From positions 7,337-71,336 of the forward strand of contig JBNKMF010000008.1 in assembly GCA_050292965.1 (NCBI GenBank): DNA of 64,000 nt, given 5' to 3'. Source of the DNA: Gammaproteobacteria bacterium. Lineage in GTDB: Bacteria; Pseudomonadota; Gammaproteobacteria; GCA-001735895. Below, piece by piece: positions 19,594 to 58,616 of the stretch (within the stretch, counting starts at the first letter, position 1; every line of letters begins with the position of its first letter). Below the pieces are notes generated by a model. The model made no database searches. It saw only the letters and a program-made list of their open reading frames with translations, and was not told where the DNA came from. Made by a program: the position numbers and the translations under genes.

Positions 19594-19639
19594 TATTTGT
19601 TAAAGCTTTAATATAGTACCAACTGATCCGGAAATAACC

Positions 19640-20044
19640 ATGCTAAAAATATTACTCGCCGTTGTGCTACTGATGTTCCACTTACCATTATTAGCTGCTG
19701 ATGAAACAGAAAAGGATAAATTGACACCCGGATACGTCTCTATGGGCGAAGCAATGGTACTTAACCTGGACACAGACAGCACTCGCTTGAGCTATGTTCA
19801 ATTAAAGGCCGATGTTCTCGTGAAAGATGAAAATAGCATAGAACTGGTGAAATTACATATGCCCGCACTACGGCATCAGATTATTCTGATGCTCAGTGAA
19901 CAGGATGCTGCCAGGATGAAATCACCTGTCGAGCGTGAAAAACTACGTAAAAAGATTTCCGATAAAGTTCGAAGTGTATTTAAAGAGCTTGCTGGAAAAG
20001 ATGTCATCGAAGAGATTCTATTTTCCAATTTTCTGATTCAATGA
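19640..20044 (+). CDS. FliL-like (flagellar basal body-associated) family protein, orphan
   Basis: Signal/TM segment plus 'YVSMGEAMVLNL....YVQLKADVLVKD......HMPALRHQIILMLS'. Confidence 0.6.
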   Translation: MLKILLAVVLLMFHLPLLAADETEKDKLTPGYVSMGEAMVLNLDTDSTRLSYVQLKADVLVKDENSIELVKLHMPALRHQIILMLSEQDAARMKSPVEREKLRKKISDKVRSVFKELAGKDVIEEILFSNFLIQ

Positions 20045-26457: not shown

Positions 26458-26489
26458 TTATATGATTGAACAGACCCTATCACTCTAAA

Positions 26490-26504
26490 TGTTGCACCGC
26501 AACA
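26490..26504. promoter_or_regulatory. TGC-rich palindrome tgttgc-acc-gcaaca, candidate PhaR operator in the divergent promoter region
   Basis: Perfect 6-bp half-sites, 33 bp upstream of the 349-aa ORF start. The neighbouring 'gcaacaattaat' fits the 12-bp PhaR repeat consensus as I recall it from Ralstonia eutropha. Confidence 0.3.
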
Positions 26505-26797
26505 ATTAATCGTGCTTAAATACATCAGATAATTTCAATACAAATTATGCAGCCAGGAGCCTGTCAAGTTTAGGTGATCGTAGAGAGGGCATAGAATTTT
26601 GAGTCAAATGTTTCGATCATTTGAGGCGAATATTGAGCCTATTTAATGAAAATGATCGGATTGTTGGCCAAAATGCCTTTTCCGCATTAGATTCATCCTG
26701 AATCCAACAGGCTCCTGGCCTGTTAATACCGAGTATAAACATTGTCTTAAGGGACAGTGAGTTATCCTGAAAATAAAGAACTAGAGGTTTTATATCC

Positions 26798-27985
26798 ATG
26801 TCTGAATCTATTGTCATCACCCATGCCACAAGAACCGCCATTGGCGCCTTTGGAGGGGCTCTGGCCAATGTTTCTGCTGTTCAACTTGGCACAACAGTCG
26901 TTAAATCATTGCTTGAGCAGTCCGGTGTTTCAGCAGATCAGGTTGATGAAGTCATTTTAGGCCAGGTTCTGACAGCAGGTGCGGGGCAAAATCCCGCGCG
27001 TCAAACCGCTTTAGCCGCCGGGCTACCGGATACTTCCTCAGCCATGACCATCAACAAGGTATGTGGTAGTGGTTTAAAAGCCATTCACCTGGCCTTTCAA
27101 TCCGTAAGCTGTGGCGATGCCGATATCGTCATTGCGGGTGGCCAGGAAAATATGAGCATGTCGGCTCATGTGCTGCCCAAATCACGTAATGGCAAGATGA
27201 TGGGTAACTGGGAGCTGGAAGACAGTATGATCGTCGATGGCCTGTGGTGTGCCATGAATGATATTCACATGGGCATTACCGCTGAAAATATTGCAGAACA
27301 ATTCTCTCTGACGCGTGATGACCAGGATGCTTTCGCTGCCGCTTCACAACAAAAGACTGAAGCTGCTCAAAGTGCGGGTAATTTTGATAATGAAATCACG
27401 CCTGTTTCTATCCCTCAGCGCAAGGGCGATCCCTTAATCTTCAACAAAGACGAATTCCCACGAGCGGGTACCACCGCCGAAAAACTCGCTGGCTTACGCC
27501 CTGCGTTCAAGAAAGACGGTACAGTTACTGCAGGTAACGCATCGGGTATTAACGATGGCGCAGCGGCTGTTATGGTGATGAAGGAATCCAGGGCTAAGGA
27601 GCTTGGCCTGAAACCTATTGCACGTATTGTTGCTTTCTCCAGCGCTGGCGTTGATCCAAAGATTATGGGTACTGGACCGATTCCTTCTACCCAGAAATGC
27701 CTGCAAAAGGCGGGCTGGGATATTTCTGATCTTGACCTTATAGAATCTAACGAAGCTTTTGCTGCTCAGGCGCTTTCGGTTAATAAGAGCCTGGGCTGGG
27801 ACACTAATAAGGTTAATGTCAGCGGTGGTGCTATTTCATTAGGCCATCCTATTGGTGCTTCCGGTGCTCGTGTACTGGTAACTCTGTTGCACGGCATGCA
27901 ACGTAATTCTGCTCGTAAAGGGCTTGCTACTCTGTGTATCGGCGGTGGACAGGGTGTAGCCATGGCCGTTGAATTAGTCGATTAA
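26798..27985 (+). CDS. phaA: acetyl-CoA C-acetyltransferase (beta-ketothiolase)
   Basis: Thiolase II signatures ('VCGSGLKA', '[11 protein letters not shown]', 'GGGQGVAM'). Confidence 0.95.
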
Positions 27986-28053
27986 TCAACTCTATTAGAG
28001 ATGCAGCACATCTTGAGCTAAGATGCGCTGCCTATAAACCGAGGAAACAATCC

Positions 28054-28527
28054 GTGTCAGCATCTAGTGACAATGAACGTCTCATAAAGAAATATCCGAA
28101 CCGTCGCCTATATGATACTCAGGATAGTCGTTATATCACCCTTGACGACACCAAGCAGATGGTCATTGACAACACGCCGTTTAAGGTTGTAGACCAGAAA
28201 ACTGGAGAAGATCTGACCCGTAGCATTTTGTTGCAAATCATCATGGAACAGGAAAACAATAACGAACCACTATTCAATAGCGATATTCTGTCCGAATTTA
28301 TCCGCAACAATAGTCAGACTAATCGAGATTATTTCTCCAGCTTTCTACAGGCCAGTATGCAGTTGTTTGCTGAACAACAGGGGACTCTGGTGAACCAGAT
28401 GGATAAGGTTTTCAAGAATTCTCCGATGGATTTCTGGATGAAAATGACCAGCCAAAACCTTGAGCAGTTAACAGAATTACAGAGCAAATTTTTCAATACA
28501 GGCTCTTCTAAAGATTCTAAAAAATAA
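28054..28527 (+). CDS. phaR: polyhydroxyalkanoate synthesis repressor PhaR
   Basis: 'IKKYPNRRLYDTQDSRYITLDD' is the hallmark PhaR N-terminus. GTG start. Confidence 0.9.
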   Translation: MSASSDNERLIKKYPNRRLYDTQDSRYITLDDTKQMVIDNTPFKVVDQKTGEDLTRSILLQIIMEQENNNEPLFNSDILSEFIRNNSQTNRDYFSSFLQASMQLFAEQQGTLVNQMDKVFKNSPMDFWMKMTSQNLEQLTELQSKFFNTGSSKDSKK

Positions 28528-28618
28528 ATTTTTCTTCCCGCATATCAAATAAGTCATTGAATTTATTACATATAATATAAATATATTTTTATATTAAAAA
28601 ATAAACCTCATTCCCCGC

Positions 28619-28676
28619 TTGACAATTTTCTGATCAGACATATTATTTGTGCAGTGCAACATTGTGCAGTGCACAA
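28619..28676 (+). promoter_or_regulatory. sigma70-type phasin promoter (TTGACA-16 nt-TATTAT) overlapped by two perfect 12-bp direct repeats ttgtgcagtgca (candidate PhaR operator)
   Basis: -35 at 28619-28624 and -10 at 28641-28646. Repeats at 28647-28658 and 28662-28673, flanked by inverted tatttgtgca / tgcacaaata. Confidence 0.6.
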
Positions 28677-28723
28677 ATAATGCAAATTTAATTGACCTCT
28701 TAACTTAAGCTCGGAGAAATGCC

Positions 28724-29122
28724 ATGACTAACCCTACAGTTGAATTATTTTACGAATACAACACGAAAGCCATGGAAGCTATGCGTGCTTTCGGTGACCT
28801 GAACGTTGCTACCGCCCAGTCTTTCATCAACAAGCAAGTTGAACTGACTAATACAATCGTTGAAGCCTCGCTAGTTACCAGTAAAGAACTTGCTTCTGCT
28901 AAAACTCCTGTTGATGTAATGCAGACTTCTAGCGCTTTGATGCAAACTGTATCTGACAGCGTAACAGGTTTTGTTAAAGAGTCAGCTGCTGACGCAGTTA
29001 AAACTCGTGACGAACTGAAAGTTGCTATCGATGACGCAGTTAAACTGAATAGCGAATTTGCGACAAAAGCTTTCGATAGCGGTGTAGAAGTTGTTAAGAA
29101 AACTGCTAAAAAAGCTGCTTAA
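28724..29122 (+). CDS. phaP: phasin family protein
   Basis: 132-aa Ala-rich amphipathic helical protein with 'FGDLNVATAQSFINKQVEL', located between phaR and phaB. Confidence 0.85.
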   Translation: MTNPTVELFYEYNTKAMEAMRAFGDLNVATAQSFINKQVELTNTIVEASLVTSKELASAKTPVDVMQTSSALMQTVSDSVTGFVKESAADAVKTRDELKVAIDDAVKLNSEFATKAFDSGVEVVKKTAKKAA

Positions 29123-29302
29123 TTACTGACTGTTTTATCAGATCTAACGATCTGCCAGAGTATTTATTGCTGTGCTGTCAGATTTAACATGACTTTGTCC
29201 CATGTTGAAAACACCAACAAGAATGTTTTCTGCGCTGAAATTTAAACATCAAAATTCAACGCAACTCTGAAGCAAATAAGATTAAGGTTTAATGAGGTTT
29301 AT

Positions 29303-30049
29303 ATGTCAAAGAAAGTTGCATTAGTCACTGGCGGTACCGGCGGAATCGGAACAGCAATCTGCGAAGCCCTGGCATCAAGCGGTCACAGTGTTGTAGCCAA
29401 CTATTTCCCTGCAGATAAAGAAGCAGCTGAAAGCTGGTTAGCCGAGATGCAAAACAGAAATGCAGATGTACATATTGCCCCTGCAGATGTTACCAGCTAT
29501 GAAGAATGCGGAGAAATGGTTCAGTATATTGAAGCTAGTGTTGGACCTATCGATGTACTGGTGAACTGTGCCGGCATCACTCGCGACAAAACCTTAAAGC
29601 GTATGACTCCTGATCAATGGACAGATGTCATCAACACCAATCTGAACAGTGCTTTCAACGTAACCCAGCATGTAGTAACCGGTATGACCGAGCGTGGCTT
29701 TGGTCGCATCATCAATATTTCATCGGTGAATGGCCAGAAAGGTCAATTTGGTCAGGCAAACTACTCAGCTGCGAAAGCTGGCTTACACGGTTTCACCATG
29801 TCAGTAGCTCAGGAAACAGCATCTAAAGGCGTCACGGTAAATACCGTCTCTCCTGGATACATTGAAACATCTATGACCAGCGCCATGCCCGACGAAGTAC
29901 TTCAATCTATCGTCAGTGCTGTTCCCGTAGGACGTATGGGCAAACCAGAAGAAATCGCAAATACCGTTGCCTGGCTGGCTGATGCTCAAAACGCCTACAC
30001 TACCGGTGCCAATATCCCGGTTAATGGCGGCATGTTTATGTCTGCCTAA
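29303..30049 (+). CDS. phaB: acetoacetyl-CoA reductase (SDR)
   Basis: 'VTGGTGGIGTAI', 'NISSVNG', 'YSAAKAG', 248 aa. Confidence 0.9.
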   Translation: MSKKVALVTGGTGGIGTAICEALASSGHSVVANYFPADKEAAESWLAEMQNRNADVHIAPADVTSYEECGEMVQYIEASVGPIDVLVNCAGITRDKTLKRMTPDQWTDVINTNLNSAFNVTQHVVTGMTERGFGRIINISSVNGQKGQFGQANYSAAKAGLHGFTMSVAQETASKGVTVNTVSPGYIETSMTSAMPDEVLQSIVSAVPVGRMGKPEEIANTVAWLADAQNAYTTGANIPVNGGMFMSA

Positions 30050-40239: not shown

Positions 40240-40611
40240 TTAAGCAGCTTTCCGAGTAGTGGTTGAAAACTCGACAAGGTCTTCCTGGATTGGGCAAAAC
40301 TCTAATTCAACATGTTGAATGGTTGGCTGAGAAAGTTTTTCGTCACAGGCACCAGTGGTAGAACAGTTTTCACATTTGGACATGTGTTGCTTGATATTAT
40401 GTACCGATGACTTGTGCAGATAGGCATTGCTATCCAGTCCAAGAGCACTCAGCACTTTCGACATACGCAACTGTTGTAAACTTTGTGCTAGATTTTTGCG
40501 AAATTCGCGGCCCTGTCGCATATTCTTTCTGAAAAGCAAAACGAAGAAGACGTTGAGCATGGTCATAGCCGAAGCTAAAATGGCTAATAAGATATAGCTG
40601 ATGATTTCCAT
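40240..40611 (-). CDS. small single-TM protein with Cys-rich C-terminal domain (DUF6455-like?)
   Basis: ATG 40611 has GGGGGA 6 nt upstream. One TM helix, then 'MSKVLSALGLDSNAYL....CENCSTTGACDEKL....FCP'. Confidence 0.5.
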   Translation of the reverse strand: MEIISYILLAILASAMTMLNVFFVLLFRKNMRQGREFRKNLAQSLQQLRMSKVLSALGLDSNAYLHKSSVHNIKQHMSKCENCSTTGACDEKLSQPTIQHVELEFCPIQEDLVEFSTTTRKAA

Positions 40612-41195
40612 TAGTTTCCCCCAGATAAAATGACCGGCGAGTGTAAGCTTAAACCAGTTATTTTTATGTGACATAGATCATATGTCGCTGCGTAATATGG
40701 ATCTAATTTCGAGCGATTAACGGTTTTTTCATATATTCTATCCCTGAACAGCCCCTGCTGATGAATTAATATTTATTTTGATGATTGCCTGTATCAGGGT
40801 TTAGCGGTACGTAATGGCGAAATACTGTCCAAAACCGGACAAAGGTCTACTGTTTTAGTTAGTCTATCCAGAGACAGAGGCTTATATCAGACTGATTCTT
40901 TCATTTTGATCTTTTCCGTTTTGATAGATAACATGGGTTAAAGCAGTGAGCATAAATTGATAATTGGCATCGATATAAGCTAAAAAACTGCAAGTTCTAC
41001 AGATTCGGGCTTTTCTTTGAGATAGGTAAAAAATTGACTGATGCATAAGTTTTTACAGTTTGTTGTAACAATTGCGGAACATTGCCTTAAATAATTCATT
41101 CAGCTACAAATTGATAGATTTTCTTTAACTATAACTGGATAAAGTTTAAGTCCCAATAATGTAAAAACTCAAGGCATTAACTTGCGGTTAAAATA

Positions 41196-44100
41196 ATGAT
41201 AAAAAAATTTTCAATCTTCTTAATATTGCTGATTTGTTATTCGAATGCTTCAGCAGATTATAAACTGCCTTCTGCGCTGACCAATGATCCGTTTAATTGT
41301 TCAGGTAGTGGATCTCCATATACCTGCAGTAGCAGTATTTCAATACCAGAGGAATCAAAATTTAAACTTAACTCAGACATAACGTTGAATATAACGGGTG
41401 ATTTTACCCTGGGAAAAGATTTTGAAGGAGTGACTACCAACGGATATCAATTAACCTTGGTTGTCGACGGCAATGTAACAATAAATAAAGAATCCACATT
41501 TAGTGGCAATATCTTTGCTACGGGTGATATAACTATAAAAAAAGAAGCCGACTTCGTTGGTAATATTTCTGCAAAAAAAAATATCCATATTGAGAAAGAA
41601 AGTAATTTTAACGGTGATATTAGCGCTGGTGGAAGTTTGGTTATCAGCAAATCAACGACGGTAGATGGCAATTGCTCACCCTCAAATTCTAGATGCACGG
41701 GTACATTCATTCCAGCTGATTGTGACATTTTTGCAGATAACTTTAACTCCACCAGTTATAGCAATCAGGATGGAACTGCAGACTGGTCGTCAGACTGGTC
41801 TGAAACTAACGATGATGATTCTCCTAACAATGGTGAAATAAGAATTAGAAAAAATATTTTGCGAATAGAAAACAGAGATCGAGCTATTACTCGTAATGCA
41901 AATTTATCGGAATACTCTACTGCTACCCTTACTTTTAATTATCATGAAAGTAAATTTGATGACAATAGCGATTCCATTAATATTGAGGTGCAGGGCGGCG
42001 GAAATGGTTGGACTAGCCTGCAAAAGTTTGCGGGGTCAAATGTAGGTAGTGGCAGAGCCAGCTTACCTATTTCAAGTTCTTTCCTCGACAGTAATTTTCA
42101 AATACGGTTTATTACCTCAAATACGCTAGGAGAGAAAAACCGGTTTTATGTCGACAATCTAAGAATTGAAGCCTGTTCAGAGCTCTTACCATTGGCAGAA
42201 TGGCACTTTGACGAATCGAGCTGGAGCGGAGTCACTGGAGAAGTTGTAGATACGCAGGGCACTTTAGATGGAACAGCCGTCAATGGAGCCACAACAGGAG
42301 GGAGTAAGAGAGCTATAGCCGGTACCCCTGGAACCTGTCGCTATGGTATGTTTGATGGTGAAGATGATTATGTTGACTTGAACGGCATGCCTGAGTTAAC
42401 AGGTAGTTTCACAATATCTGCATGGATATACGCCAATGAAACAGGCAATGATCAACGTATTTTCGTAGATGATCAGAATAATTCAAATGGATTTGGATTA
42501 AGTCTCGGGGATGGTGGAAATGGTCAATTAAGATTCTTTTCAAGAAGTGTAAATCCAGTGATAGTGGATACTCAGAATGCCGTAATTTCAGCAAAAACAT
42601 GGTATCACGTGGCAGCGGTGCATGACATATCGGCGAAAACACGGCAAATTTATGTAAATGGTACGGCAGCGACATTATCAGGCGGTGTTACAGCTCCGAC
42701 CTATACAGGAGAATGGGATGTTGATACAGACGCTGCCAGTATTGGTGGAGAAAATAATAATGCCGGGGAAGCCAGCGCTAACTTTAGATTTAACGGCAAT
42801 ATCGATGAAGTCAGGGTTTACGATGGAGCGCTATCTGCCGGCCAGATCAATACTGTTATGAATGAAACTCATCCCTGCCCTCTTATGATACATCATTTTA
42901 ATATCAATGTTGGTGCTGGCGCAGCTAATACCTGTACACCGTTTGAATTTACCATAACTGCTGAAGATAGCAGTAATAATCCAGTCACTGATTACTACGG
43001 TACAATTTTCATCAAAACAAGTACCGAAAATGGTGATGCCGCCAACGGTAATTTTAGTACAATAACAGCCACCAATAATATTAATCCAAATCCAGATAAT
43101 GACGATAATGGTAGCGCCAGTTATGCCTTCGACCAGGCGGATAATGGTTCCATCAGTTTAGCGCTGACCAATAACCATTCGCAAACACTCATCATATCCG
43201 TGGTAGATTCATTATTGCCACATACTTTGTCGTCCACGACGAAAGTGTTTTTTAGCAACTCTGGTTTTGTCATTAGCGATGCGGACACCACCCTGGCAGG
43301 AGCGAATAATATCCCAGTTGCTGGACGAGAGCATAATTTCCTCGTACAAAAGAAACGTCGGAGCAAAAAAGGAAGAGGTTGTATTATTGATACCAACTAC
43401 GATGGCGATAAGAATCTGCAAATGTGGCGCAGCAAAAATAAGACCGATCCCAGTAGTAATTCACCAACACTGGGTGGTTACTCGTTACCGGATGCCAAAC
43501 CGGAAACTGCAAATGGAAAAAAGATAAATTTTGTTAGGGGTGAGGCTAGATTAGATTTAAAGACGACTGATATTGGTCGGTATAGGATTGAGCTTGCCGA
43601 TATTTCCAATAGATTTCCCATCTCGGGAACCTCGGCTGAACAGACGATCCGACCATTCGGTCTGGCGATAGATAATGTTGAGGGCACTCATGCAAATGAT
43701 AAAAGCAATACCCCTGATGGAAAAATCTTTGCAACTGCAGGGGCCAATTTTAGTGCAACAGTGAAGGCGGTCCTTTGGGATAGTGCGGATGATTCAAACA
43801 GTGATGGCATAATCGATGCTGGGCACAGCTTTAATGATAATAATAAAGTCCCCAGCTTCGCCTGGGATACCTTACTGGATGGTGTGACTGGTGGTTATAC
43901 CCCCGCTGGTAGTAGCGCTGATTTTTTGCGTGGAGTTAATCAGGTAGCGAACTTGACAAAGGCTGAGTTTAGCGACCATTCGGGAACGTTTACAGTTACT
44001 AATTTGCGATATGCAGAAGTTGGTAGTTTTACACTACGTGGTGATGTAACTGGATTTCTGGGTGCTGCCGGTGCCAATTTCTATAGCGATGAAATCGTGG

Positions 44101-45056
44101 TAGGTCGCTTCATACCCGCTAGTTTTGAACTCACCACAGTTTCTAATGGTACCCTGGAGAATGCTTGCGGAAGTTTTAATTATATTGGTCAAGAGTTTGG
44201 CTATTATAAGAAGCCATCCTTCGTGGTAACGGCTATGAATGCGCTACCTGAACCAACTGCTACGGGTAATTACACTGGAAGCTGGAGTAAATTGACGACG
44301 GATTCATTTTCGTTTGATTCGGTAACTCAAGATTCCAGCAATAAAGGTGCTGATGGTAAAAAACTGGACATCGTATACACCAAGAAGGCCCTCAGTATTG
44401 ATGACAATGAGGATGGTAGTTTTAACGTGTCATTCGGCGCGGATAGCTTTTGCTATGGATTGGGTACCCCCTGTGTCAAACAGTCTAACGCCCAGGTAGC
44501 AGAGTTTACTGCGGATATCGATATTAAATTGACCAAGATTCACGATGACGATGTCATTACAGAAAATATCGAAGGCATACAAGTTTTTTCTCCGGCACAG
44601 CTATTGCCAGAAACGGAGTTACCAGGAACGATGCGTTTTGGCCGCCTGGCTATGGAAAATGTATTTGGCTCAGAGTTGATTGGCTTAACTATGCCTATGA
44701 GAACTCAATACTTTGATGGCAGCAACTATCTCCTTAATGCCGCTGATAACTGTACCACGCTAAATACTAATGAACTCGAGGTGACTCCGTCACTGAGTGG
44801 GGGTACTTCGACCGTTACAGTAATTTCAACTAATGCAACAGCGGGTGTTCTAGATATAAGTCTGACAGCCCCAGGGGCGGGTAAGACTGGATATATTGAT
44901 GTGACTCCGGATTTAAAAAAAAATGATTTCGGTGTACCCTGGCTGCAATATGACTGGAATAGCACAATTCCAGGGCTGGAAAATCCAACCGGTCGTGCTA
45001 CTTTTGGTATCTATAACGGCAATCCGCCGCAGATATACATCCGCCAGATCCATTAA
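41196..45056 (+). CDS. giant secreted MshQ-like / LamG-domain protein, paralog 1 (1286 aa)
   Basis: Signal peptide. 'DYKLP..C.GSGSPYTC' head, 3 x ~19-aa beta-helix-like repeats, LamG core 'FTISAWIYANETGNDQRIFVDDQNNSNGFG...WYHVAAVH...NGNIDEVRVY', and C-terminus 'ATFGIYNGNPPQIYIRQIH'. Confidence 0.7.
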   Translation: MIKKFSIFLILLICYSNASADYKLPSALTNDPFNCSGSGSPYTCSSSISIPEESKFKLNSDITLNITGDFTLGKDFEGVTTNGYQLTLVVDGNVTINKESTFSGNIFATGDITIKKEADFVGNISAKKNIHIEKESNFNGDISAGGSLVISKSTTVDGNCSPSNSRCTGTFIPADCDIFADNFNSTSYSNQDGTADWSSDWSETNDDDSPNNGEIRIRKNILRIENRDRAITRNANLSEYSTATLTFNYHESKFDDNSDSINIEVQGGGNGWTSLQKFAGSNVGSGRASLPISSSFLDSNFQIRFITSNTLGEKNRFYVDNLRIEACSELLPLAEWHFDESSWSGVTGEVVDTQGTLDGTAVNGATTGGSKRAIAGTPGTCRYGMFDGEDDYVDLNGMPELTGSFTISAWIYANETGNDQRIFVDDQNNSNGFGLSLGDGGNGQLRFFSRSVNPVIVDTQNAVISAKTWYHVAAVHDISAKTRQIYVNGTAATLSGGVTAPTYTGEWDVDTDAASIGGENNNAGEASANFRFNGNIDEVRVYDGALSAGQINTVMNETHPCPLMIHHFNINVGAGAANTCTPFEFTITAEDSSNNPVTDYYGTIFIKTSTENGDAANGNFSTITATNNINPNPDNDDNGSASYAFDQADNGSISLALTNNHSQTLIISVVDSLLPHTLSSTTKVFFSNSGFVISDADTTLAGANNIPVAGREHNFLVQKKRRSKKGRGCIIDTNYDGDKNLQMWRSKNKTDPSSNSPTLGGYSLPDAKPETANGKKINFVRGEARLDLKTTDIGRYRIELADISNRFPISGTSAEQTIRPFGLAIDNVEGTHANDKSNTPDGKIFATAGANFSATVKAVLWDSADDSNSDGIIDAGHSFNDNNKVPSFAWDTLLDGVTGGYTPAGSSADFLRGVNQVANLTKAEFSDHSGTFTVTNLRYAEVGSFTLRGDVTGFLGAAGANFYSDEIVVGRFIPASFELTTVSNGTLENACGSFNYIGQEFGYYKKPSFVVTAMNALPEPTATGNYTGSWSKLTTDSFSFDSVTQDSSNKGADGKKLDIVYTKKALSIDDNEDGSFNVSFGADSFCYGLGTPCVKQSNAQVAEFTADIDIKLTKIHDDDVITENIEGIQVFSPAQLLPETELPGTMRFGRLAMENVFGSELIGLTMPMRTQYFDGSNYLLNAADNCTTLNTNELEVTPSLSGGTSTVTVISTNATAGVLDISLTAPGAGKTGYIDVTPDLKKNDFGVPWLQYDWNSTIPGLENPTGRATFGIYNGNPPQIYIRQIH

Positions 45057-45067
45057 TCAACCCTGTC

Positions 45068-45403
45068 TTAACCTATCATTTTCTTAAACTAGTCCAGGTG
45101 AATCATAAGGGCGAGCAACAAAGCCCAGGAGGCTATAGAAAGCCTCTGCCCCCTTTGCTGCAAACAGAAGCACTCGACGGATATCTTAGCGCTCACATTT
45201 CTTCACCATTATACGGATAATCTGGCAGCCCCTACGGTAACACCATCACATCATAGATAGTTGCATAAGCTACGCCATCAGATACGGCGCGACCAAAGCC
45301 AATGAGCTTGTGCGGAATCCAGGTTTAAGCGTTAATTCCAGCCTGCTCTGTGAATACAGAGCTTAAAATTCGGATTTTGATGGGATTTTGTCTTTATATC
45401 CTG
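45068..45403 (-). pseudogene. decayed duplicate of the GNAT acetyltransferase gene at 50234-50641
   Basis: Alignable by eye over its whole length with 50234-50641 (roughly four in five positions). There are two deletions, one removing the QGQGIG acetyl-CoA motif region. The start codon is lost (ttccat becomes tcctga). No ORF of 60 aa or more in any frame. Confidence 0.8.
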
Positions 45404-45605
45404 ATTTAAGAGTCCCCCATGTATTAAGGCCGAGGCAGTGAAAGCTAATTTCTATAATGTGCTAGATGCTGTCTTTGAGCTGAATGTTTTCAGTCTATTG
45501 TGTGATTTTATAGACTAAGGCACCTATTTAAGCAGTATTCTCAACTATAATCGAGTTGCGTTTTATAAATAAATTTCCTGCGATACAATAATACCGAGAG
45601 TTCGC

Positions 45606-48600
45606 ATGTATAAAATTATAGCGTTAACTTTCTTGATTCTCAGTTTTTCACCTCGGGTAAATGCAGCAAGCTATACCCTGCCGGGAGATTTTGGCACCGG
45701 TATATTTAATGGCTGTTCCTTAACGGGGTCAGACTATCATTGTGATAGCAATATCTCTATTCCGCAGAACTCAGATATAACTCTTACCAGCGATGTCGCT
45801 CTTTATGTCCACGCAAACTTTTCAATCCAGAGCGGATTTGTAGGGGTTAATACGAATGGGAATGCTCTGAATATTACTGTTGATGGAAATGTATCTATCA
45901 ATAAACAATCGACTTTTACCGGCAATCTAGAGGCTACCGGTAATGTAAATATCGGTGGTCTAGCCACTTTTACCGGATATATCGTTTCATCTAGCGTTAT
46001 TAATATCGGCCAGGATAGTGTTTTTACAGGGGATATCACGACTACTGGTAGCCTGAATATCGGCAATGCAACGATAGTAAATGGTATTTGTACACCCACC
46101 CACCCTCAATGTACCGGTGTCGTAGTAACCCCCACAGGTTGCGACACATTAGCGGATAATTTCAATTCATTCAGCTATAGCCGGCAGGATGGAACAGTCT
46201 TCTGGACATCAGACTGGGTAGAGAGCAACGATAATGGATCTCCAAACAATGGTGATATTCGTATCACCGGAAATCGGTTACTCATAGAAAATAGTGGTCG
46301 AGCAATTACTAGAGGTGCAGATTTATCGACTTATTCATCAGCTACTCTAACTTTTACTTACGAGGAAAGCGGTTTTGATACCAGCAGTGATTTTATTGAT
46401 ATTGAGATTCAGGGGGGTGGGAGTGGGTGGACCAGCCTGCAAAATTTTGCTGGATCAAGTGTTGGTACTGGCAGCGCCAATTTATCCATTGCAAGCTCAT
46501 TCCTGGCCAGTGACTTTCAAATACGTTTGATTACATCAAATAGCTTGGGTAATAGTGATCGTTTCTATATTGATGATCTGCAGATAGAGGCCTGTCCGGG
46601 GACGTCGCAACCCGCAATCGATTTCCATTTTGATGAAGCAAGCTGGACAGGTGTCAGTAATGAGGTCATCGACAGTAGTGTAAATTCCAAGCATGCTTCG
46701 ATTAGCCCTGCCAGTGGGTTAAATACCATAGCTAACGGAGCTATATGTCGTGCAGGACAGTTTGATGGTATTAATGATTACATTGTTTCAAACGATATCT
46801 TTTCAGTATTGAAAACTACAGCTTCCATGAGCTTCTGGATCAAAACCATACAAACTGGAAATGATACAAACTGGCTAGCCCCAGGTGTTGCTGGAATCGA
46901 ACAGTCCGGAGGTCGTGATGATATTTTTTGGGGTTGGCTGGATGCTTCTGGCCATATAGGCATTTCTAAATGGGATACACCCTCTGCCAAGTCTAGCGTG
47001 GCAATCAATGATGGCGTGTTTCATCATATTGTTCTTACACGTGAGTCGGCTAGTGGCGCTTACAAGATTTATATAGATGGAGTTTTGAATAAATCAGGAA
47101 CAACTGGGGCAGGTGATGTGGGTACCTCCTTCAGTAGTATCGGGCGCATTGAGGACACAGCTGGCACCCCGGAATATCTAGCGGCCGATCTTGATGAGAT
47201 TATGGTGTTTAACCGTGTTTTAACTGATGCACAGGTATCCGAAATTTATACCAATCAGGCGGCGGGTAATAACTATGATGGCTCATCAAGAGCCTGTCTG
47301 GATACACCATTGGCTGAATGGCGCTTTGACGAGTCAAGCTGGAGCGGGACATCTGGAGAAGTAATAGACACACAGGGTAATATAAACGCTACTGCGGTTA
47401 ATGGTGCTAACACTGGGGGAAGCAATCCGGCTATAGCTGGCAATCCTGGAACCTGTCGCTATGGTGTGTTTGATGGCTCAAATGATTATATCGACTTAAA
47501 CGGAATGCCCGAATTAACAGGCAGTTTCACTATATCCGCCTGGATTTATGCCAATGAAACCGGTAATGATCAACGTATTTTTGTGGATGATCAGAATAAT
47601 TCAAATGGATTTGGTTTTAGTCTCGGAGATGGTGGAAATGGTCACCTTAGATTCTTTTCAAGAGGCATAAGTCCAGACATAGTTGATACCCAGAATGCCG
47701 TAATTTCGACAGGTCAATGGTATCACGTGGCAGCAGTGCATAATGCATTGGCAAAAACCCGTCAAATTTTTGTTAATGGTGCTGCAGTGGCATTAACAGG
47801 TGGGGTTACAACAGCGACCTATACAGGAACCTGGGGTTTTGATAGTGGTGCGGCCAGTATTGGCGGTGAAAATAATAGTGCAGGCAGCGAAGCTGTAGCC
47901 AACTGGAGATTTAATGGCAATATCGATGAAGTCAGGGTTTACCAGTCAGCGTTAACTGCCAGTCAAATCACGCTCTTAATGAATCAAACGAGACCCTGTG
48001 CCGCTACAGCCGTTGACCATTATGTAATAGCCCACAGCAATCTGGGTGTAACTTGTGAGGCAGAATTGATAACTGTCACAGCGCATGATGCCAGTCATGG
48101 AGTGATAAACCCAGCCTCGTTTACTACCATTACATTGACTACCTCTTTGGCTAATGATGGTTGGACATTAGCCAGTGGTAGTGGAACATTTACTTCACCC
48201 AATCAGTATAGCTTTAGCGGGAGTGAATCTTCGATACAGTTCTGGCTGAGTAAAAAAAGTGTTACCACGGCTCCGCACATGAATATCGATGTCTCTGATG
48301 GTACGGCCAGTGATCTTGACAATGGTGGTGCTGAGGATCCAGGAAATATTGAATTTAAGGATACAGGTTTACGCTTTTATGCAGATTCTGTAAATAATTC
48401 AATAGCCACACAGATAGCTGGTAAAGCATCGAACATCAATCCTAACTCACAATCGTTAACCTTAATGGCTGTAGAAACCAATAGTGAAACGGGTGCCTGC
48501 GAAACAGTTGTTAAAGGAACTACCGATATACTACTCTCGGTTGGATGTATAAACCCGTCTAGCTGTTCACGCCCCTTGTATCTTGGTAGCACTTCCGCAT

Positions 48601-50225
48601 CCACAGCGATAACTGGCAACAGCCCGACTTACCAGAAGGTCACCCTGGATTTTGGTACCACCGGCGAAGCTGCGTTTGTAATGAATTATCCTGATAGCGG
48701 CAAAATACAGCTACATGCGCAATACACCTTGCCATCCTCTAGCCTGCCCAGTACAGGAATTACCTTGAATGGAAGTAGTAATCAGTTTGTATCTCGGCCT
48801 TTTGGGTTTCATATCGATGCAGTTAGCAATCCGGCAGGATCGACATTTGACGATACGATTTATACCACTGCAGGGTCGCTGTTTACAGTGAATGTAGCGG
48901 GGTCGTTATGGAACAGTGCGGATGACGGCAACAATGATGGCATCCCCGACAACCATGATGACGATAATCCGGCCAATAATGCAAACCTCGGTGATAACAA
49001 TGTCAGTCTCGGCGGGATCAGTTATAAAGGTACACCCAACTTCGGTCAGGAAGGTGAGCAGGTGGTTTTGCAGGGGATATTGATTGACCCCTTTGTCAGC
49101 AGTTATGCCGATGCCGATTTCCCGGTGCAGACTCTGACGGGTTTTACTAATGGGGCGGATAGTACCGCCAGCGCAGCATTCAATGATGTCGGTATCATTG
49201 AACTTAGAGCCCTGATTAGCGATGGAGATTATCTGGGAACAGGAACTAGCGAGACAGCTAGTATGGTCTCCAAATCCGGTTATGTCGGCCGATTTACCCC
49301 GGCAGCTTTTAGTGTCAATGTAACCAATAACGGGGTACTGGATAATACCTGCTCGAGCGCTGTCGCTTTTACCTATATCGGTCAGGACTTTGGCTATCTG
49401 GTAAACCCGGTTTTGCGGGTAAATGCATTAAATACGCTCTCTGCTATCACCGAAAATTATCGGGGTAACTATGTAAAACTGAACGCAAACAGCTTGACCA
49501 TCGATGTTTCTCAGGACAGCAGCACAACGGGGACTGATGCAAATCCATTGTTGGTGGCCTATACCCCTCAGCCAATAGCTTTTGTTGCCAACAATAATGG
49601 GACCGTCGATTTTACACTTGGAGATGATCAGTTCCGCTATGGTGATAGTGTTACCAGTAACGCTTATATCAAACTGGCTAACAGTGAAGTGCCCCCATTT
49701 GTGGCTAATATAGATCCTCTCATTAGTCAGATCACCGATGGAGAGGTAACAACTACTGTGTCACAGAGTATCAATCTGGTGGGCAATACTCAGCGTTTTG
49801 GCAGAATCAGAATGTCGAATGCCTATGGGTCGGAACTGACGAGCCTGCAGATGCCGATGATAGTGGAATTTTTTAACAATACCGGTTATCAACTGAATAC
49901 TGATGATAACTGCACATTATTCAATAATGCTGATTTATTCACCATAGCCGATAACCTGGTCACGCCGAATGCATCCATTATATCGGTAACTAACCCTGTC
50001 GCGGTTGCAGGTGTACTGGGTGTAACATTAACGTCACCGGGAGCAGATAACGTTGGTACGATTGACTTGAGTGCATTGTTAAGCGGTGGGGTAATTGATA
50101 ATAGATGGCTCAGGTACGACTGGGATGCAGATGGAAATTTTGATAATGATCCATCAGCAAGTGCGACTTTTGGTATTTATAACGGCGATGCGCGGCATAT
50201 ATACATCCGTCAGATATATTATTAA
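45606..50225 (+). CDS. giant secreted MshQ-like / LamG-domain protein, paralog 2 (1539 aa, two LamG modules)
   Basis: Collinear with paralog 1 plus an extra LamG-like module (aa ~336-565). C-terminus 'ATFGIYNGDARHIYIRQIYY'. Confidence 0.7.
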   Translation: MYKIIALTFLILSFSPRVNAASYTLPGDFGTGIFNGCSLTGSDYHCDSNISIPQNSDITLTSDVALYVHANFSIQSGFVGVNTNGNALNITVDGNVSINKQSTFTGNLEATGNVNIGGLATFTGYIVSSSVINIGQDSVFTGDITTTGSLNIGNATIVNGICTPTHPQCTGVVVTPTGCDTLADNFNSFSYSRQDGTVFWTSDWVESNDNGSPNNGDIRITGNRLLIENSGRAITRGADLSTYSSATLTFTYEESGFDTSSDFIDIEIQGGGSGWTSLQNFAGSSVGTGSANLSIASSFLASDFQIRLITSNSLGNSDRFYIDDLQIEACPGTSQPAIDFHFDEASWTGVSNEVIDSSVNSKHASISPASGLNTIANGAICRAGQFDGINDYIVSNDIFSVLKTTASMSFWIKTIQTGNDTNWLAPGVAGIEQSGGRDDIFWGWLDASGHIGISKWDTPSAKSSVAINDGVFHHIVLTRESASGAYKIYIDGVLNKSGTTGAGDVGTSFSSIGRIEDTAGTPEYLAADLDEIMVFNRVLTDAQVSEIYTNQAAGNNYDGSSRACLDTPLAEWRFDESSWSGTSGEVIDTQGNINATAVNGANTGGSNPAIAGNPGTCRYGVFDGSNDYIDLNGMPELTGSFTISAWIYANETGNDQRIFVDDQNNSNGFGFSLGDGGNGHLRFFSRGISPDIVDTQNAVISTGQWYHVAAVHNALAKTRQIFVNGAAVALTGGVTTATYTGTWGFDSGAASIGGENNSAGSEAVANWRFNGNIDEVRVYQSALTASQITLLMNQTRPCAATAVDHYVIAHSNLGVTCEAELITVTAHDASHGVINPASFTTITLTTSLANDGWTLASGSGTFTSPNQYSFSGSESSIQFWLSKKSVTTAPHMNIDVSDGTASDLDNGGAEDPGNIEFKDTGLRFYADSVNNSIATQIAGKASNINPNSQSLTLMAVETNSETGACETVVKGTTDILLSVGCINPSSCSRPLYLGSTSASTAITGNSPTYQKVTLDFGTTGEAAFVMNYPDSGKIQLHAQYTLPSSSLPSTGITLNGSSNQFVSRPFGFHIDAVSNPAGSTFDDTIYTTAGSLFTVNVAGSLWNSADDGNNDGIPDNHDDDNPANNANLGDNNVSLGGISYKGTPNFGQEGEQVVLQGILIDPFVSSYADADFPVQTLTGFTNGADSTASAAFNDVGIIELRALISDGDYLGTGTSETASMVSKSGYVGRFTPAAFSVNVTNNGVLDNTCSSAVAFTYIGQDFGYLVNPVLRVNALNTLSAITENYRGNYVKLNANSLTIDVSQDSSTTGTDANPLLVAYTPQPIAFVANNNGTVDFTLGDDQFRYGDSVTSNAYIKLANSEVPPFVANIDPLISQITDGEVTTTVSQSINLVGNTQRFGRIRMSNAYGSELTSLQMPMIVEFFNNTGYQLNTDDNCTLFNNADLFTIADNLVTPNASIISVTNPVAVAGVLGVTLTSPGADNVGTIDLSALLSGGVIDNRWLRYDWDADGNFDNDPSASATFGIYNGDARHIYIRQIYY

Positions 50226-50233
50226 ATCCTGCC

Positions 50234-50641
50234 TTAACTTACTTTCTCGTAAACCATTCCTGGTGAGTCATAAGGACGAGCAACAAAGCCCAGATGGTTA
50301 TAGAAAGCTTCTGAACCCTTAGCTGCAAACAAATGCACCCGACGGATATCGTAGCGCTCACATTTGTTCACCAGTATACGAATAATCTGGCTGCCGATGC
50401 CCTGCCCCTGCCAGTTGGGTAGCACCATCACATCATAAATAGTGGCATAAGCAACGCCATCTGAAACGGCACGACCGAAACCAATGAGTTTATTATTTTC
50501 ATAAACAGAGACTACAGCGAAACTATTGTGAATGGCTTTTTCAAGTTCATCGGGACTCAGGTTTAAACGCTCAACCCAGCCAGACTCGGTGTACAGCGGA
50601 TAAAATTCGGTTTTAGATGGGATTTTGTCTTTATATTCCAT
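50234..50641 (-). CDS. GNAT-family N-acetyltransferase
   Basis: 135 aa with 'VLPNWQGQGIGSQIIRILV' (Q/RxxGxG/A acetyl-CoA motif). Confidence 0.85.
   Translation of the reverse strand: MEYKDKIPSKTEFYPLYTESGWVERLNLSPDELEKAIHNSFAVVSVYENNKLIGFGRAVSDGVAYATIYDVMVLPNWQGQGIGSQIIRILVNKCERYDIRRVHLFAAKGSEAFYNHLGFVARPYDSPGMVYEKVS

Positions 50642-57566: not shown

Positions 57567-58616
<1,050 letters not shown>

What the first reader, a model, noticed from the sequence alone, without database searches (positions are those of the whole stretch)
41196..50225. Tandem pair of giant secreted MshQ-like LamG proteins with no pilus machinery nearby
Seen in the sequence: two adjacent plus-strand ORFs (1286 and 1539 aa) are collinear paralogs. 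Each has these parts in order.
- A Sec-type signal peptide (…YSNASA|DY and …PRVNA|AS).
- A Cys-containing head ('(D/S)Y(K/T)LP…C.(G/L).GS.Y.C.S.ISIP').
- Three ~19-residue beta-helix-like repeats.
- A ~150-aa module ending 'RFY(V/I)D(N/D)L(R/Q)IEAC'.
- One or two LamG/concanavalin-type modules.
- About 700 aa of T/S/N/G-rich sequence with an Asp-rich 'W(D/N)SADD.N.DGI.D' loop.
- A shared C-terminus, 'ATFGIYNG....IYIRQI'.

From memory, not searched: this head, LamG core and 'FG.Y.G....IY.R' tail are what I associate with MshQ and with the DUF6701 family. MshQ is the last gene of MSHA type IV pilus operons in Vibrio and Shewanella, and its function is still uncharacterised.

Inference: no pilin, secretin, platform or ATPase gene lies anywhere in this 64-kb window, and the neighbours are housekeeping genes or small enzymes. 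The pair is therefore either an orphan pilus-associated adhesin set acting in trans, or a pilus-independent secreted lectin-like system. This is the best candidate in the window for an undescribed system.
Basis: partly seen in the sequence, partly recalled or inferred. Interest (0 to 1): 0.8.

Follow-up and report, generated by a model that had tools for sequence, protein, structure and literature searches.

The report
Orphan pair of MshQ-type pilus-tip adhesins
Two neighbouring giant secreted proteins belong to the MshQ family of probable type IV pilus tip adhesins, but they sit in a distinct sub-lineage that no longer lies next to any pilus genes and has an altered docking tail, so it is not yet known what they attach to.

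Summary
ORFs A (41196-45056, 1286 aa) and B (45606-50225, 1539 aa) are collinear paralogues. Each has a Sec-type leader, a Cys-bracketed head, a beta-helix, a jelly-roll module, one or two LamG domains and a strong DUF6701 (MshQ) region (E 2e-88 and 2e-103). No pilus gene lies in the 64-kb window or about 10 kb beyond its right edge.

The family is not undescribed. Deleting V. cholerae mshQ lowers MSHA piliation. A 2026 paper models MshQ as the PilC/PilY1-equivalent tip adhesin, docked by donating its C-terminal beta-strand to the minor pilin MshP.

What is new is the sub-lineage. Of 67 other DUF6701 loci, 49 sit directly behind pilin genes. A and B belong to a clade (80% bootstrap) found in 16 loci, none with pilin genes. 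In this clade the conserved tail Glu is replaced by Gln. The tail is among the most conserved stretches, yet it is modelled as unstructured. A and B are mosaic, divergent alleles joined with a decayed GNAT copy. In 13 canonical loci mreB directly follows mshQ; here it lies 7 kb downstream.

Best reading: interchangeable adhesins acting in trans on a type IV filament encoded elsewhere (about 0.5). Main rival: pilus-independent lectins left after the msh operon was lost (about 0.33).

The parts
41196..45056 (+). Gene A, MshQ-family (DUF6701) secreted protein, 1286 aa
   Evidence: ORF. Pfam DUF6701 2e-88, Laminin_G_3 7e-27, Bactofilin 1e-8.
41196..41255 (+). A: Sec-type signal peptide (aa 1-20, ...SNASA|DY). 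No lipobox.
   Evidence: Read from the sequence. Cleavage site inferred from the AXA rule.
41256..41714 (+). A: Cys-stapled head (C35/C44) plus right-handed beta-helix (aa ~21-173; C160/C167 at its end)
   Evidence: AlphaFold model pLDDT ~90 with short repeated strands. Bactofilin hit 88-160. Cys positions.
41721..42176 (+). A: jelly-roll/CBM-like module (aa 176-327), bracketed by C176/C327, ends RFYVDNLRIEAC
   Evidence: Model pLDDT ~90, all-beta. Fold matches to CBM/lectin domains. 67-70% identical to the B copy.
42345..42872 (+). A: LamG/pentraxin-like domain (aa ~384-559), bracketed by C381/C561
   Evidence: Pfam Laminin_G_3 387-551. Pentraxin, laminin-G and sialidase-lectin fold matches. 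73-87% identical to LamG2 of B.
42891..45017 (+). A: stalk of Ig-like/macroglobulin-like beta-sandwich domains (DUF6701 region), with Asp-rich DDSNSDGIID loop at aa 866 and RFGR..M.N..GSEL motif
   Evidence: Model mean pLDDT 85, pTM 0.71. Fold matches to titin Ig, PrgB Ig-like domains, invasin and SbsB. Pfam DUF6701.
45018..45053 (+). A: extreme C-terminal strand GNPPQIYIRQIH, the candidate docking peptide (C-beta)
   Evidence: pLDDT <50 and no secondary structure in the monomer model. The tail is one of the two most conserved 20-aa windows in the clade (0.66 vs mean 0.42). The last 61 nt are 85% identical between A and B.
45079..45399 (-). Decayed copy (pseudogene) of the GNAT acetyltransferase gene that follows B. 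It is a scar showing that the joined unit was [adhesin gene + GNAT].
   Evidence: 80-89% DNA identity to 50244-50636, with in-frame stops and deletions.
45606..50225 (+). Gene B, MshQ-family (DUF6701) secreted protein, 1539 aa
   Evidence: ORF. Pfam DUF6701 2e-103, Laminin_G_3 x2 2.5e-39.
45606..45665 (+). B: Sec-type signal peptide (aa 1-20, ...PRVNA|AS)
   Evidence: Read from the sequence.
45666..46133 (+). B: Cys-stapled head (C37/C46) plus beta-helix (C162/C169)
   Evidence: Collinear with A at 42-48% identity. Weak Bactofilin hit 89-162.
46140..46595 (+). B: jelly-roll module (aa 179-330; C179/C330)
   Evidence: 67-70% identical to the A module. Cys positions.
46638..47285 (+). B: extra LamG domain (LamG1, aa ~345-560; C381/C564), absent from A
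   Evidence: Insertion relative to A in the alignment. Second Laminin_G_3 stretch and Sialidase/Pentaxin hits 468-552.
47472..47969 (+). B: LamG2 (aa 623-788; C617/C798)
   Evidence: Pfam Laminin_G_3 best stretch. 79% DNA identity to the LamG of A.
48342..50186 (+). B: DUF6701 stalk (aa 913-1527), with Asp-rich loop DDGNNDGIPD at aa 1107
   Evidence: Pfam. Motif.
50187..50222 (+). B: extreme C-terminal strand GDARHIYIRQIYY
   Evidence: Clade-wide conservation.
50234..50641 (-). Intact GNAT acetyltransferase gene; conserved right-hand flank of the locus in related genomes
   Evidence: Pfam. Synteny.
57570..58616 (+). mreB, on the same strand as A and B and 7.3 kb downstream. In canonical msh operons mreB directly follows mshQ.
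   Evidence: Pfam. mreB lies 100-300 bp after mshQ in 13 canonical loci.

Best explanation
A and B are two divergent alleles of an MshQ-family fibrillar adhesin.

**Architecture.** Each is exported by Sec and stabilised by paired cysteines. Each carries a variable, lectin-like binding end (head, beta-helix, jelly-roll, and one LamG in A or two in B). This sits on a conserved rod of Ig-like beta-sandwich domains (DUF6701). The rod ends in a short, free C-terminal strand that is very conserved.

**Proposed mechanism.** This follows the published model for MshQ and PilC/PilY1. In the periplasm, the free strand completes the beta-sheet of a PilK/MshP-class minor pilin belonging to a type IV filament. 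Here that filament must be encoded elsewhere in the genome. The adhesin is then built into the tip-initiation complex and carried out on the pilus tip. Two genes with different heads, different LamG content and different rods would give the cell alternative binding specificities on one pilus, much like the two pilC genes of Neisseria.

**What sets this lineage apart.** It is a distinct sub-clade that lost linkage to pilin genes once. The family's conserved tail glutamate is replaced by glutamine, which suggests a changed acceptor.

**Shown here:** family membership, domain architecture, the orphan state across the clade, tail conservation and its predicted disorder, mosaicism, and the duplication scar.

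**Inferred:** export, docking on a minor pilin, tip location, carbohydrate-type ligands, and the existence of a pilus elsewhere in the genome.
For: - **Family membership.** DUF6701 at E 2e-88 and 2e-103, far above the 27-bit cutoff. Proteins annotated as MshQ appear among the homologues.
- **Published model.** MshQ follows mshD-O-P. Its extreme C-terminus is predicted to add a strand to MshP. Deleting mshQ lowers piliation.
- **Tail motif.** The FG.Y.G....I..R(E/Q).. motif ends within about 5 residues of the stop throughout the family.
- **Tail conservation.** Within the clade, the last 20 residues are one of the two most conserved windows (0.66 vs a mean of 0.42). The last 61 nt of A and B are 85% identical, although their DUF6701 regions are only 23-48% identical. 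This fits a shared partner.
- **Tail structure.** In a confident monomer model (pLDDT 85, pTM 0.71), the last 12 residues are unstructured (pLDDT <50). That is expected for a strand donated in trans.
- **Variable heads.** N-terminal heads vary greatly while the C-terminal region is conserved, as described for PilC/PilY1.
- **Binding-type folds.** The N-terminal part matches lectin, CBM, pentraxin and tailspike folds. The rod matches adhesin Ig-like domains.
- **Derived from operon genes.** The nearest sister of the clade is an operon-embedded gene, L030.
- **Pairs occur inside operons.** Tandem MshQ pairs are found in pilin operons L030, L076 and L084.
- **Precedent.** Neisseria has two redundant pilC genes.
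- **Long-term retention.** Intact ORFs are kept in 16 loci at two stable chromosomal positions, down to about 36% identity.
Against: - No acceptor pilin or pilus machinery was found, either in the 64-kb window plus ~10 kb more or in the flanks of any of the 16 clade loci.
- I could not examine the rest of any of these genomes.
- The tail glutamate is kept in 49 of 52 operon-embedded genes but is replaced by glutamine in this clade. This could mean that docking was lost rather than retargeted.
- The locus lies 7.3 kb upstream of mreB, where canonical msh operons end. That fits in-place loss of the machinery genes.
- Docking of MshQ itself rests on structure modelling, not experiment.
Confidence: 0.5

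Rival explanations
1. Pilus-independent lectins or adhesins left over from a lost msh operon. The lineage deleted the msh machinery and pilin genes at the ancestral msh-mreB locus but kept the adhesin gene. The protein now works as a free secreted or otherwise surface-held carbohydrate-binding protein. The conserved tail would serve a new role, such as docking to a non-pilin acceptor or acting as an export or folding signal.
For: - All 16 clade loci lack pilin genes, against 49 of 67 other loci that have them.
- The clade arose once (80% bootstrap).
- It changed the family's conserved tail Glu to Gln.
- In 13 canonical loci mshQ directly abuts mreB. Here A and B lie upstream of mreB on the same strand, only 7.3 kb away, with no msh remnants.
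- DUF6701 is also found on non-canonical ice-binding proteins that are regarded simply as cell-surface proteins.
Against: - The free, disordered tail remains among the most conserved parts of the protein. A and B share it despite deep divergence elsewhere. This needs a specific partner or signal.
- None of the known non-pilus sorting signals is visible: no C-terminal TM helix, PEP-CTERM, LPXTG or T9SS CTD (read from the sequence).
- No alternative anchor or secretion gene recurs next to the clade genes.
- Group II clade members are not near mreB, so the relic argument covers only part of the clade.
Confidence: 0.33
2. The adhesins dock on a different type IV filament class: a T4aP PilX/PilK tip complex, or the type II secretion pseudopilus. 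The Glu-to-Gln tail change would then mark a switch of acceptor after the MSHA system was lost. This is a special case of the best explanation and is listed separately because the partner differs.
For: - Strand addition is proposed for T4aP, T4bP, T4cP, T4dP and T2SS tip complexes alike.
- The clade-specific tail change, together with possible in-place loss of msh genes, fits retargeting.
Against: - In T2SS the strand is supplied in cis by GspK, which leaves no vacancy.
- No data on which filament systems these genomes encode.
Confidence: 0.1
3. Non-functional relics: decaying genes with no current role.
For: Orphan position. A decayed GNAT copy next to A shows that the locus has undergone rearrangement.
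Against: - Uninterrupted ORFs of 1286 and 1539 aa.
- Intact orthologues in 16 loci, with motif-level conservation and even cysteine counts.
- Confident domain models.
Confidence: 0.03

Closest known systems
MshQ of the Vibrio cholerae MSHA type IVa pilus (VC0414; Pfam DUF6701)
   Same: Same Pfam family at very high significance. Large Sec-exported protein with LamG-type domains. Conserved FG.Y.G....I..R.. C-terminal motif ending at the stop codon. Variable N-terminal region.
   Different: - Not downstream of mshD-O-P and not in any pilin operon.
- Belongs to a separate clade in which Gln replaces the conserved tail Glu.
- Has a distinct Cys-head, beta-helix and jelly-roll N-terminus.
- Two mosaic copies are present.
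PilC/PilY1 tip adhesins of type IVa pili (Neisseria, Pseudomonas, Acinetobacter, Kingella)
   Same: Proposed working principle: a variable adhesin N-terminus, disulfides, a conserved C-terminal module, and an extreme C-terminal strand donated to the PilK-class minor pilin. Neisseria strains carry two redundant pilC genes (PMC13533445). From memory, those genes lie away from the minor-pilin operon.
   Different: No sequence or fold homology. The conserved module here is a rod of Ig-like beta-sandwiches, not a beta-propeller. No phase-variation tract was found.
Non-canonical DUF3494 ice-binding proteins with a C-terminal DUF6701 domain (Colwellia and others; PMC11645318)
   Same: A beta-helical N-terminal binding domain fused to a C-terminal DUF6701 region. 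Considered surface proteins.
   Different: The beta-helix of A and B matches Ice_binding only below threshold (24.2 vs 28.7 bits). The context of those proteins was not examined here.
CofJ of enterotoxigenic E. coli (a secreted protein that docks on the type IVb pilus tip minor pilin CofB; PMC6048534)
   Same: An example of a separately secreted protein that binds a pilus-tip minor pilin.
   Different: Unrelated protein, encoded within its pilus operon, and a different docking mode. Known to me only from the title and abstract.

Membership tests
MshQ / DUF6701 family | Significant match to the Pfam DUF6701 profile over its full length | tested here: met
   A: E 2e-88, profile positions 14-575 of 577. 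B: E 2e-103, positions 13-575 of 577. Cutoff 27 bits. Newer sub-models DUF6701_2nd/3rd/4th are also recorded on both proteins.
MshQ / DUF6701 family | Conserved C-terminal motif (A/S)xFG(I/L/V)(Y/F).G....I..R(E)... ending at the stop codon | tested here: inconclusive
   The motif and its position are present. However, the Glu kept by 49 of 52 operon-embedded genes is Gln in A, in B and in their whole clade.
MshQ / DUF6701 family | Gene lies directly downstream of PilI/J/K-type minor pilin genes (mshD-O-P) in a type IV pilus operon | tested here: not met
   No prepilin-type gene in the window or in any of the 16 clade loci. By contrast, 49 of 67 other DUF6701 loci have 1-7 such genes upstream on the same strand, and 27 also show MshE in view.
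MshQ / DUF6701 family | Sec signal peptide, exported protein | tested here: met
   Typical n-h-c leaders with AXA sites, read from the sequence. Even numbers of paired Cys in the mature proteins. No dedicated predictor was available.
MshQ / DUF6701 family | Needed for normal MSHA piliation; located at the pilus tip | not testable with these tools
   Requires genetics and microscopy. In V. cholerae only the piliation defect has been shown.
PilC/PilY1 family | C-terminal beta-propeller domain | tested here: not met
   No PilY1 Pfam match. The C-terminal model is a chain of beta-sandwich domains.
PilC/PilY1 family | Free extreme C-terminal strand that completes the PilK-class pilin sheet | tested here: inconclusive
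   The tail is conserved and unstructured in the monomer model. No partner was available to model.
TafC (haloarchaeal Tat-fimbria subunit, NCBIfam NF052521) | Score above the curated cutoff (410 bits) over the whole model | tested here: not met
   39.7 and 52.7 bits, covering the LamG region only. The family is archaeal and Tat-dependent.
Bactofilin (cytoskeletal polymer) | Cytoplasmic protein made essentially of the bactofilin beta-helix | tested here: not met
   The Pfam hit (35.5 bits in A, 21.3 in B) covers only about 70 residues of a secreted protein of 1286 or 1539 aa. The shared feature is the beta-helix fold, not family membership.
DUF3494 ice-binding proteins | Ice_binding profile match above the gathering score | tested here: not met
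   A: 24.2 bits against a 28.7-bit cutoff. B: no hit.

The most novel reading that the evidence does not exclude
The Gln-tail clade is an MshQ lineage that outlived its pilus. The msh operon was deleted at the old msh-mreB site, and the adhesin was kept and diversified. Its conserved free C-terminal strand now docks by strand addition onto a new, non-MSHA acceptor, or possibly a non-pilin one. That would make it a pilus-independent surface lectin system found in uncultured marine Gammaproteobacteria and a gutless-worm symbiont.
Probability: 0.25. Interest if true: 0.7.

Novelty: new variant of a known kind. Interest (0 to 1): 0.45.

Why it matters
**A natural test of a new model.** The strand-addition model for type IV filament tip complexes was published only in 2026, and for MshQ it rests on modelling alone. 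This clade is a ready-made test case. It keeps the rod and the free conserved tail, but it has lost linkage to every pilin gene and changed the most conserved tail residue.

**What each outcome would show.**
- Finding its acceptor would show whether tip adhesins can be exchanged in trans between loci or between pilus classes.
- Finding that it has no acceptor would show whether a pilus adhesin can become an independent surface lectin.

**Ecology.** The clade occurs in uncultured marine Gammaproteobacteria and in the Olavius algarvensis Gamma 3 endosymbiont, so its ligands may matter for particle or host attachment.

**Scale and variability.**
- DUF6701 is large (2,918 representatives at E <= 1e-10), and at least 28 of the 150 best have the Gln tail.
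- The mosaic structure (an A-like head on a B-like body in sister genomes) marks the locus as a hot spot for adhesin diversification.

Tried and rejected
- **First genome scan attempt.** The 11-sequence alignment was too divergent to give a search pattern. A 6-sequence alignment worked. That scan's patterns favour relatives of B, so the lack of a second DUF6701 locus in the same genomes says nothing.
- **Rest of the source genome.** I could not inspect it. The left-edge look-up failed because the M4 peptidase product is not on record.
- **TafC fimbrial protein.** Rejected. It is far below the cutoff, matches LamG only, and is an archaeal Tat-fimbria subunit.
- **Bactofilin and Ice_binding hits.** Treated as similarity in beta-helix fold only.
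- **Promoter and terminator scans.** Uninformative. Promoter-like sites were fewer than in shuffles.
- **Upstream regions of A and B.** They do not align meaningfully.
- **Phase variation.** No convincing tract; only two A9 runs inside A.
- **Recent gene conversion between A and B.** Not supported. The best DNA identity is 79% over 686 bp in LamG.
- **Recurrent neighbours.** Found only housekeeping synteny.
- **Literature on the msh-mreB junction and on pili in the Olavius Gamma 3 symbiont.** Nothing usable.
- **Solved structures.** No PDB entry covers DUF6701 by sequence. Fold matches for both halves are generic multi-domain hits with low TM-scores.
- **Technical failures.** The first NJ run timed out. 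The second left out a clade member and overflowed on very divergent pairs. Both were redone. One large alignment failed internally.

Full report
**1.

The two plus-strand ORFs are at 41196-45056 (A, 1286 aa) and 45606-50225 (B, 1539 aa). They are collinear paralogues (BLASTP E = 0).

Pfam gives DUF6701 at E 2e-88 (A, residues 683-1283) and 2e-103 (B, 913-1535), both over almost the whole 577-position profile. It also gives Laminin_G_3 once in A (7e-27) and twice in B (2.5e-39), and a Bactofilin-type beta-helix match near the N-terminus. NCBIfam returns only a sub-threshold TafC hit on the LamG part. TafC is a haloarchaeal Tat-fimbria subunit, so I rejected it.

Both proteins start with classical Sec leaders (…SNASA|DY and …PRVNA|AS) and have no lipobox. 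After the leader, A has 14 cysteines and B has 16. They fall in pairs that bracket each module: 35/44 for the head, 160/167 at the end of the helix, 176/327 for the jelly-roll and 381/561 for LamG in A, with the same pattern in B. This suits exported, disulfide-stabilised proteins.

**2. No pilus genes nearby**

I scanned 50 window ORFs with Pfam. They encode:
- an M4 peptidase and several transporters;
- PHA metabolism genes and aconitase B;
- a signal peptidase and a DEAD helicase;
- small enzymes and two GNATs;
- Hsp33, gatCAB, mreBCD, RNase D and others.

None is a pilin, secretin, platform or ATPase gene.

Three further checks agree:
- A prepilin-motif scan of all ORFs of at least 70 aa found nothing. 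I validated that scan: all 9 motif-called ORFs tested from known operons carry Pfam N_methyl, and the upstream ATPase has T2SSE plus MshEN.
- tblastn with the upstream proteins of six msh-type operons gave one spurious hit.
- A sister assembly shows a further ~10 kb past the right edge with a chemoreceptor, oxaloacetate decarboxylase and acetyl-CoA synthetase, and no pilus genes.

There are also no tRNA, rRNA or Rfam matches.

**3. What the proteins look like**

*N-terminal part of A (residues 20-565).* An AlphaFold model built on a 20-sequence alignment has mean pLDDT 77. In order it shows:
- a short head, then a beta-helix of short repeated strands (pLDDT about 90);
- an all-beta jelly-roll (pLDDT about 90);
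- a disordered linker (A residues ~339-382);
- a LamG domain.

Foldseek against the PDB returns pentraxins, laminin-G domains, CBM22, the lectin domain of pneumococcal sialidases and phage tailspikes. These are generic carbohydrate- or ligand-binding folds.

*C-terminal part of A (residues 556-1286).* The model is confident (mean pLDDT 85, pTM 0.71). It is a chain of beta-sandwich domains. Its best matches are titin Ig domains, the Ig-like domains of the PrgB adhesin, invasin, the SbsB S-layer protein and macroglobulin domains. TM-scores are low, as expected for a long multi-domain rod. There is no beta-propeller, so this is not a PilY1 homologue. No solved structure covers DUF6701 by sequence.

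*The tail.* The last 12 residues (GNPPQIYIRQIH) are unstructured in the model, with pLDDT below 50.

**4. What is known about the family**

- MshQ is the last gene of the V. cholerae MSHA locus. Deleting it significantly lowers surface MSHA pili, while retraction still works (PMC7096442).
- A 2026 PNAS paper shows experimentally that the last ~10 residues of PilC/PilY1 complete the beta-sheet of the PilK-class minor pilin, and that this licenses tip-complex assembly.
- From AlphaFold models and the mshD-O-P-Q synteny, the same paper predicts that MshQ does this with MshP. It calls MshQ a functional homologue of PilC/PilY1 (PMC13533445).
- DUF6701 has also been noted as the C-terminal domain of non-canonical ice-binding proteins in Colwellia (PMC11645318).

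**5. The tail**

All family members I collected end with (A/S)xFG(I/L/V)(Y/F).G....I..R(E/Q)…, within about five residues of the stop. This includes proteins annotated as MshQ.

Within the clade of A and B, two 20-residue windows of the DUF6701 region are the most conserved: the last 20 residues (mean pairwise identity 0.66) and the RFGR..M.N..GSEL motif (0.61-0.67). The overall mean is 0.42. The last 61 nt of A and B are 85% identical, although their DUF6701 regions share only 23-48% of residues.

A tail that is strongly conserved, shared by two otherwise divergent paralogues and not packed into its own fold is what a strand donated in trans should look like.

**6. Genomic context across the family**

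One scan of 185,579 species genomes returned 80 loci. With the contig look-ups I analysed 83 distinct loci.

Loci outside the clade of A and B (67):

| Context | Loci |
|---|---|
| 1-7 prepilin-type genes directly upstream on the same strand | 49 (27 of these also show an MshE-type ATPase in view) |
| No pilin genes upstream, at least 3 kb visible | 8 |
| Too little upstream DNA to judge | 10 |

Of the 8 loci with no upstream pilin genes, one (Psychromonas, L003) faces a cluster of pilin genes on the other strand.

The 16 loci closest to A and B have no pilin genes at all. In 11 of them at least 3 kb of upstream DNA is visible.

The clade occupies two stable chromosomal positions:
- **Group I:** the window, L007, L008, L010, L018 and L027. 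The layout is DEAD helicase, UPF0014, GFA, FlK | gene | GNAT, GNAT, Mem_trans, cytochrome c, Hsp33, gatBAC, mreBCD.
- **Group II:** L006, L009, L012-L016 and L020, next to a rhodanese gene. This group includes the Olavius algarvensis Gamma 3 endosymbiont.

No secretion or anchoring gene recurs beside these genes.

**7. The clade is a single lineage with a changed tail**

A bootstrapped neighbour-joining tree of the last 600 residues recovers the clade in 161 of 200 replicates. It comprises 15 genes from 14 genomes, including both A and B. Its nearest sister is L030_6714, one of a tandem pair behind pilin genes in an Oleiphilaceae MAG. Orphanhood therefore looks derived and arose once.

The tail differs:
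- 49 of 52 operon-embedded genes keep a Glu within the last nine residues (…RE…).
- Every member of this clade has Gln at that position (…IYI(R/Q)QIY…).

The exhaustive representative search finds 2,918 family representatives at E <= 1e-10. Among the best 150, tails are Gln-type in 28 and Glu-type in 104. The variant is therefore a sizeable sub-family rather than a one-off.

**8. A and B are mosaic alleles, not a fresh duplication**

- Identity between A and B is 42-48% in the head and helix, 67-70% in the jelly-roll, 73-87% in LamG and 23-48% in DUF6701.
- In the tree, the rod of A groups with L018 and the rod of B groups with L007-L009.
- The single genes of the closest sister genomes (P0002, P0003) combine an A-like head (62-64% vs 38-44% to B) with a B-like body (85-87%). 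They lack the jelly-roll.
- The A-B spacer contains a decayed copy of the GNAT gene that follows B. Positions 45079-45399 match 50244-50636 at 80-89% DNA identity, with in-frame stops and deletions.

The unit that was joined was therefore [adhesin + GNAT]. The flanks are far more alike than the adhesin bodies. This fits capture of a divergent allele, and module exchange at a variable locus.

**9. Relation to mreB**

In 13 canonical loci (Vibrio, Colwellia, Alteromonas and relatives), mreB begins 100-300 bp after mshQ on the same strand. In the window, A and B lie upstream of mreB on the same strand, separated from it by 7.3 kb of nine minus-strand genes.

Such proximity is unlikely by chance: roughly 1 in 1,000 for a given gene to fall within 8 kb upstream and in that orientation in a genome of a few Mb. 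That figure is my estimate. The proximity suggests that Group I sits at the ancestral msh position and that the machinery genes were removed or moved. This is an inference. Group II members are not near mreB, and no msh remnants survive in the window.

**10. Interpretation**

The best-supported mechanism is that A and B are alternative tip adhesins. They would be exported by Sec, would donate their free C-terminal strand to a PilK/MshP-class minor pilin of a type IV filament encoded elsewhere, and would be carried out on the pilus tip (confidence about 0.5).

Support comes from family membership, the behaviour of the tail, and known precedents:
- tandem MshQ pairs inside pilin operons (L030, L076, L084);
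- two redundant pilC genes in Neisseria.

The main rival (about 0.33) is that the lineage lost its MSHA pilus and kept the adhesin as a pilus-independent lectin. Support for the rival comes from the uniform orphan state, the Glu-to-Gln change and the position near mreB.

A partner switch to another filament class (about 0.1) lies between these two readings. Decay to non-function is very unlikely (about 0.03).

The ligand is unknown. The jelly-roll and LamG folds point to glycans. The Asp-rich DDxNxDGxxD loop, which is conserved family-wide, may bind calcium. That is an inference from the motif alone.

**11. Verdict**

It belongs to a known family with a recently proposed function, so it is not an undescribed system. 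It does define a distinct, uniformly orphan, tail-altered sub-lineage of MshQ-type adhesins with clear signs of module shuffling. I rate it a new variant of a known kind, with interest 0.45.

The decisive step is a whole-genome inventory of type IV filament systems in the carriers, together with multimer modelling of the tails against their minor pilins.

Noticed in passing
window 45079-45399 (-): Decayed copy of the GNAT acetyltransferase gene at 50234-50641, lying between A and B. It is 80-89% identical at the DNA level, with in-frame stops and deletions. It marks how the two genes were joined.
   Followed up: yes
L029, L032, L033, L035, L036, L048, L058, L064, L067, L069, L076, L080, L085 (mreB 100-300 bp after the DUF6701 gene): In canonical msh-type operons of Vibrio, Colwellia and Alteromonas relatives, mreB directly follows mshQ on the same strand. 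This is an old conserved junction. In the window mreB lies 7.3 kb downstream of B on the same strand.
   Followed up: partly
L030 2887-6570 and 6714-10652; L076 1729-6606 and 6836-11806; L084 6817-10020 and 10025-13243: Tandem pairs of MshQ-family genes also occur inside pilin operons, so having two adhesins per pilus locus is not unique to the window.
   Followed up: partly
L003 10001-17562 (Psychromonas metagenome contig): An annotated MshQ faces a mini-cluster of 4-5 prepilin-type genes on the opposite strand. No ATPase or secretin lies within 10 kb. This is a third kind of arrangement: minor pilins plus adhesin, without the machinery.
   Followed up: no
window 40240-40674 (-): A small predicted membrane protein with a Cys-rich C-terminus lies divergently upstream of A. 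It has only a sub-threshold DUF6455 hit (18.9 bits). It is conserved at the same position in all Group I loci. Any link to the adhesin gene is unknown.
   Followed up: partly
window 41573 and 44915: Two A9 homopolymer runs inside the coding sequence of A. They are possible slippage sites, but there is no evidence of phase variation.
   Followed up: no
window 2909-6307 (-): A 1132-aa thermolysin-type (M4) metallopeptidase with an FTP propeptide and a long C-terminal extension carrying bacterial TSP3 repeats. It is another large secreted protein in the window. Its exact product is not on record in the contig index.
   Followed up: no
window 7406-8068 (-): A 220-aa ORF matching only the ATP-grasp and C-terminal parts of PurT. 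It looks 5'-truncated, so it may be a pseudogene or a miscalled start.
   Followed up: no
window 17829-20044 (+): A GGDEF diguanylate cyclase with a DGC-associated coil lies next to a FliL-like gene. c-di-GMP controls MSHA pilus dynamics in V. cholerae, but no link was examined here.
   Followed up: no
window 25408-30049: A polyhydroxyalkanoate cluster: PhaE-like subunit, thiolase, PhaR-type regulator, phasin and acetoacetyl-CoA reductase-like SDR.
   Followed up: no
A aa 866 (window ~43791) and B aa 1107 (window ~48924): An Asp-rich loop, DDxNxDGxxD, is conserved across the whole DUF6701 family. It resembles calcium-binding loops. PilY1 is known as a calcium-dependent regulator, so this may be a functional parallel.
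   Followed up: no
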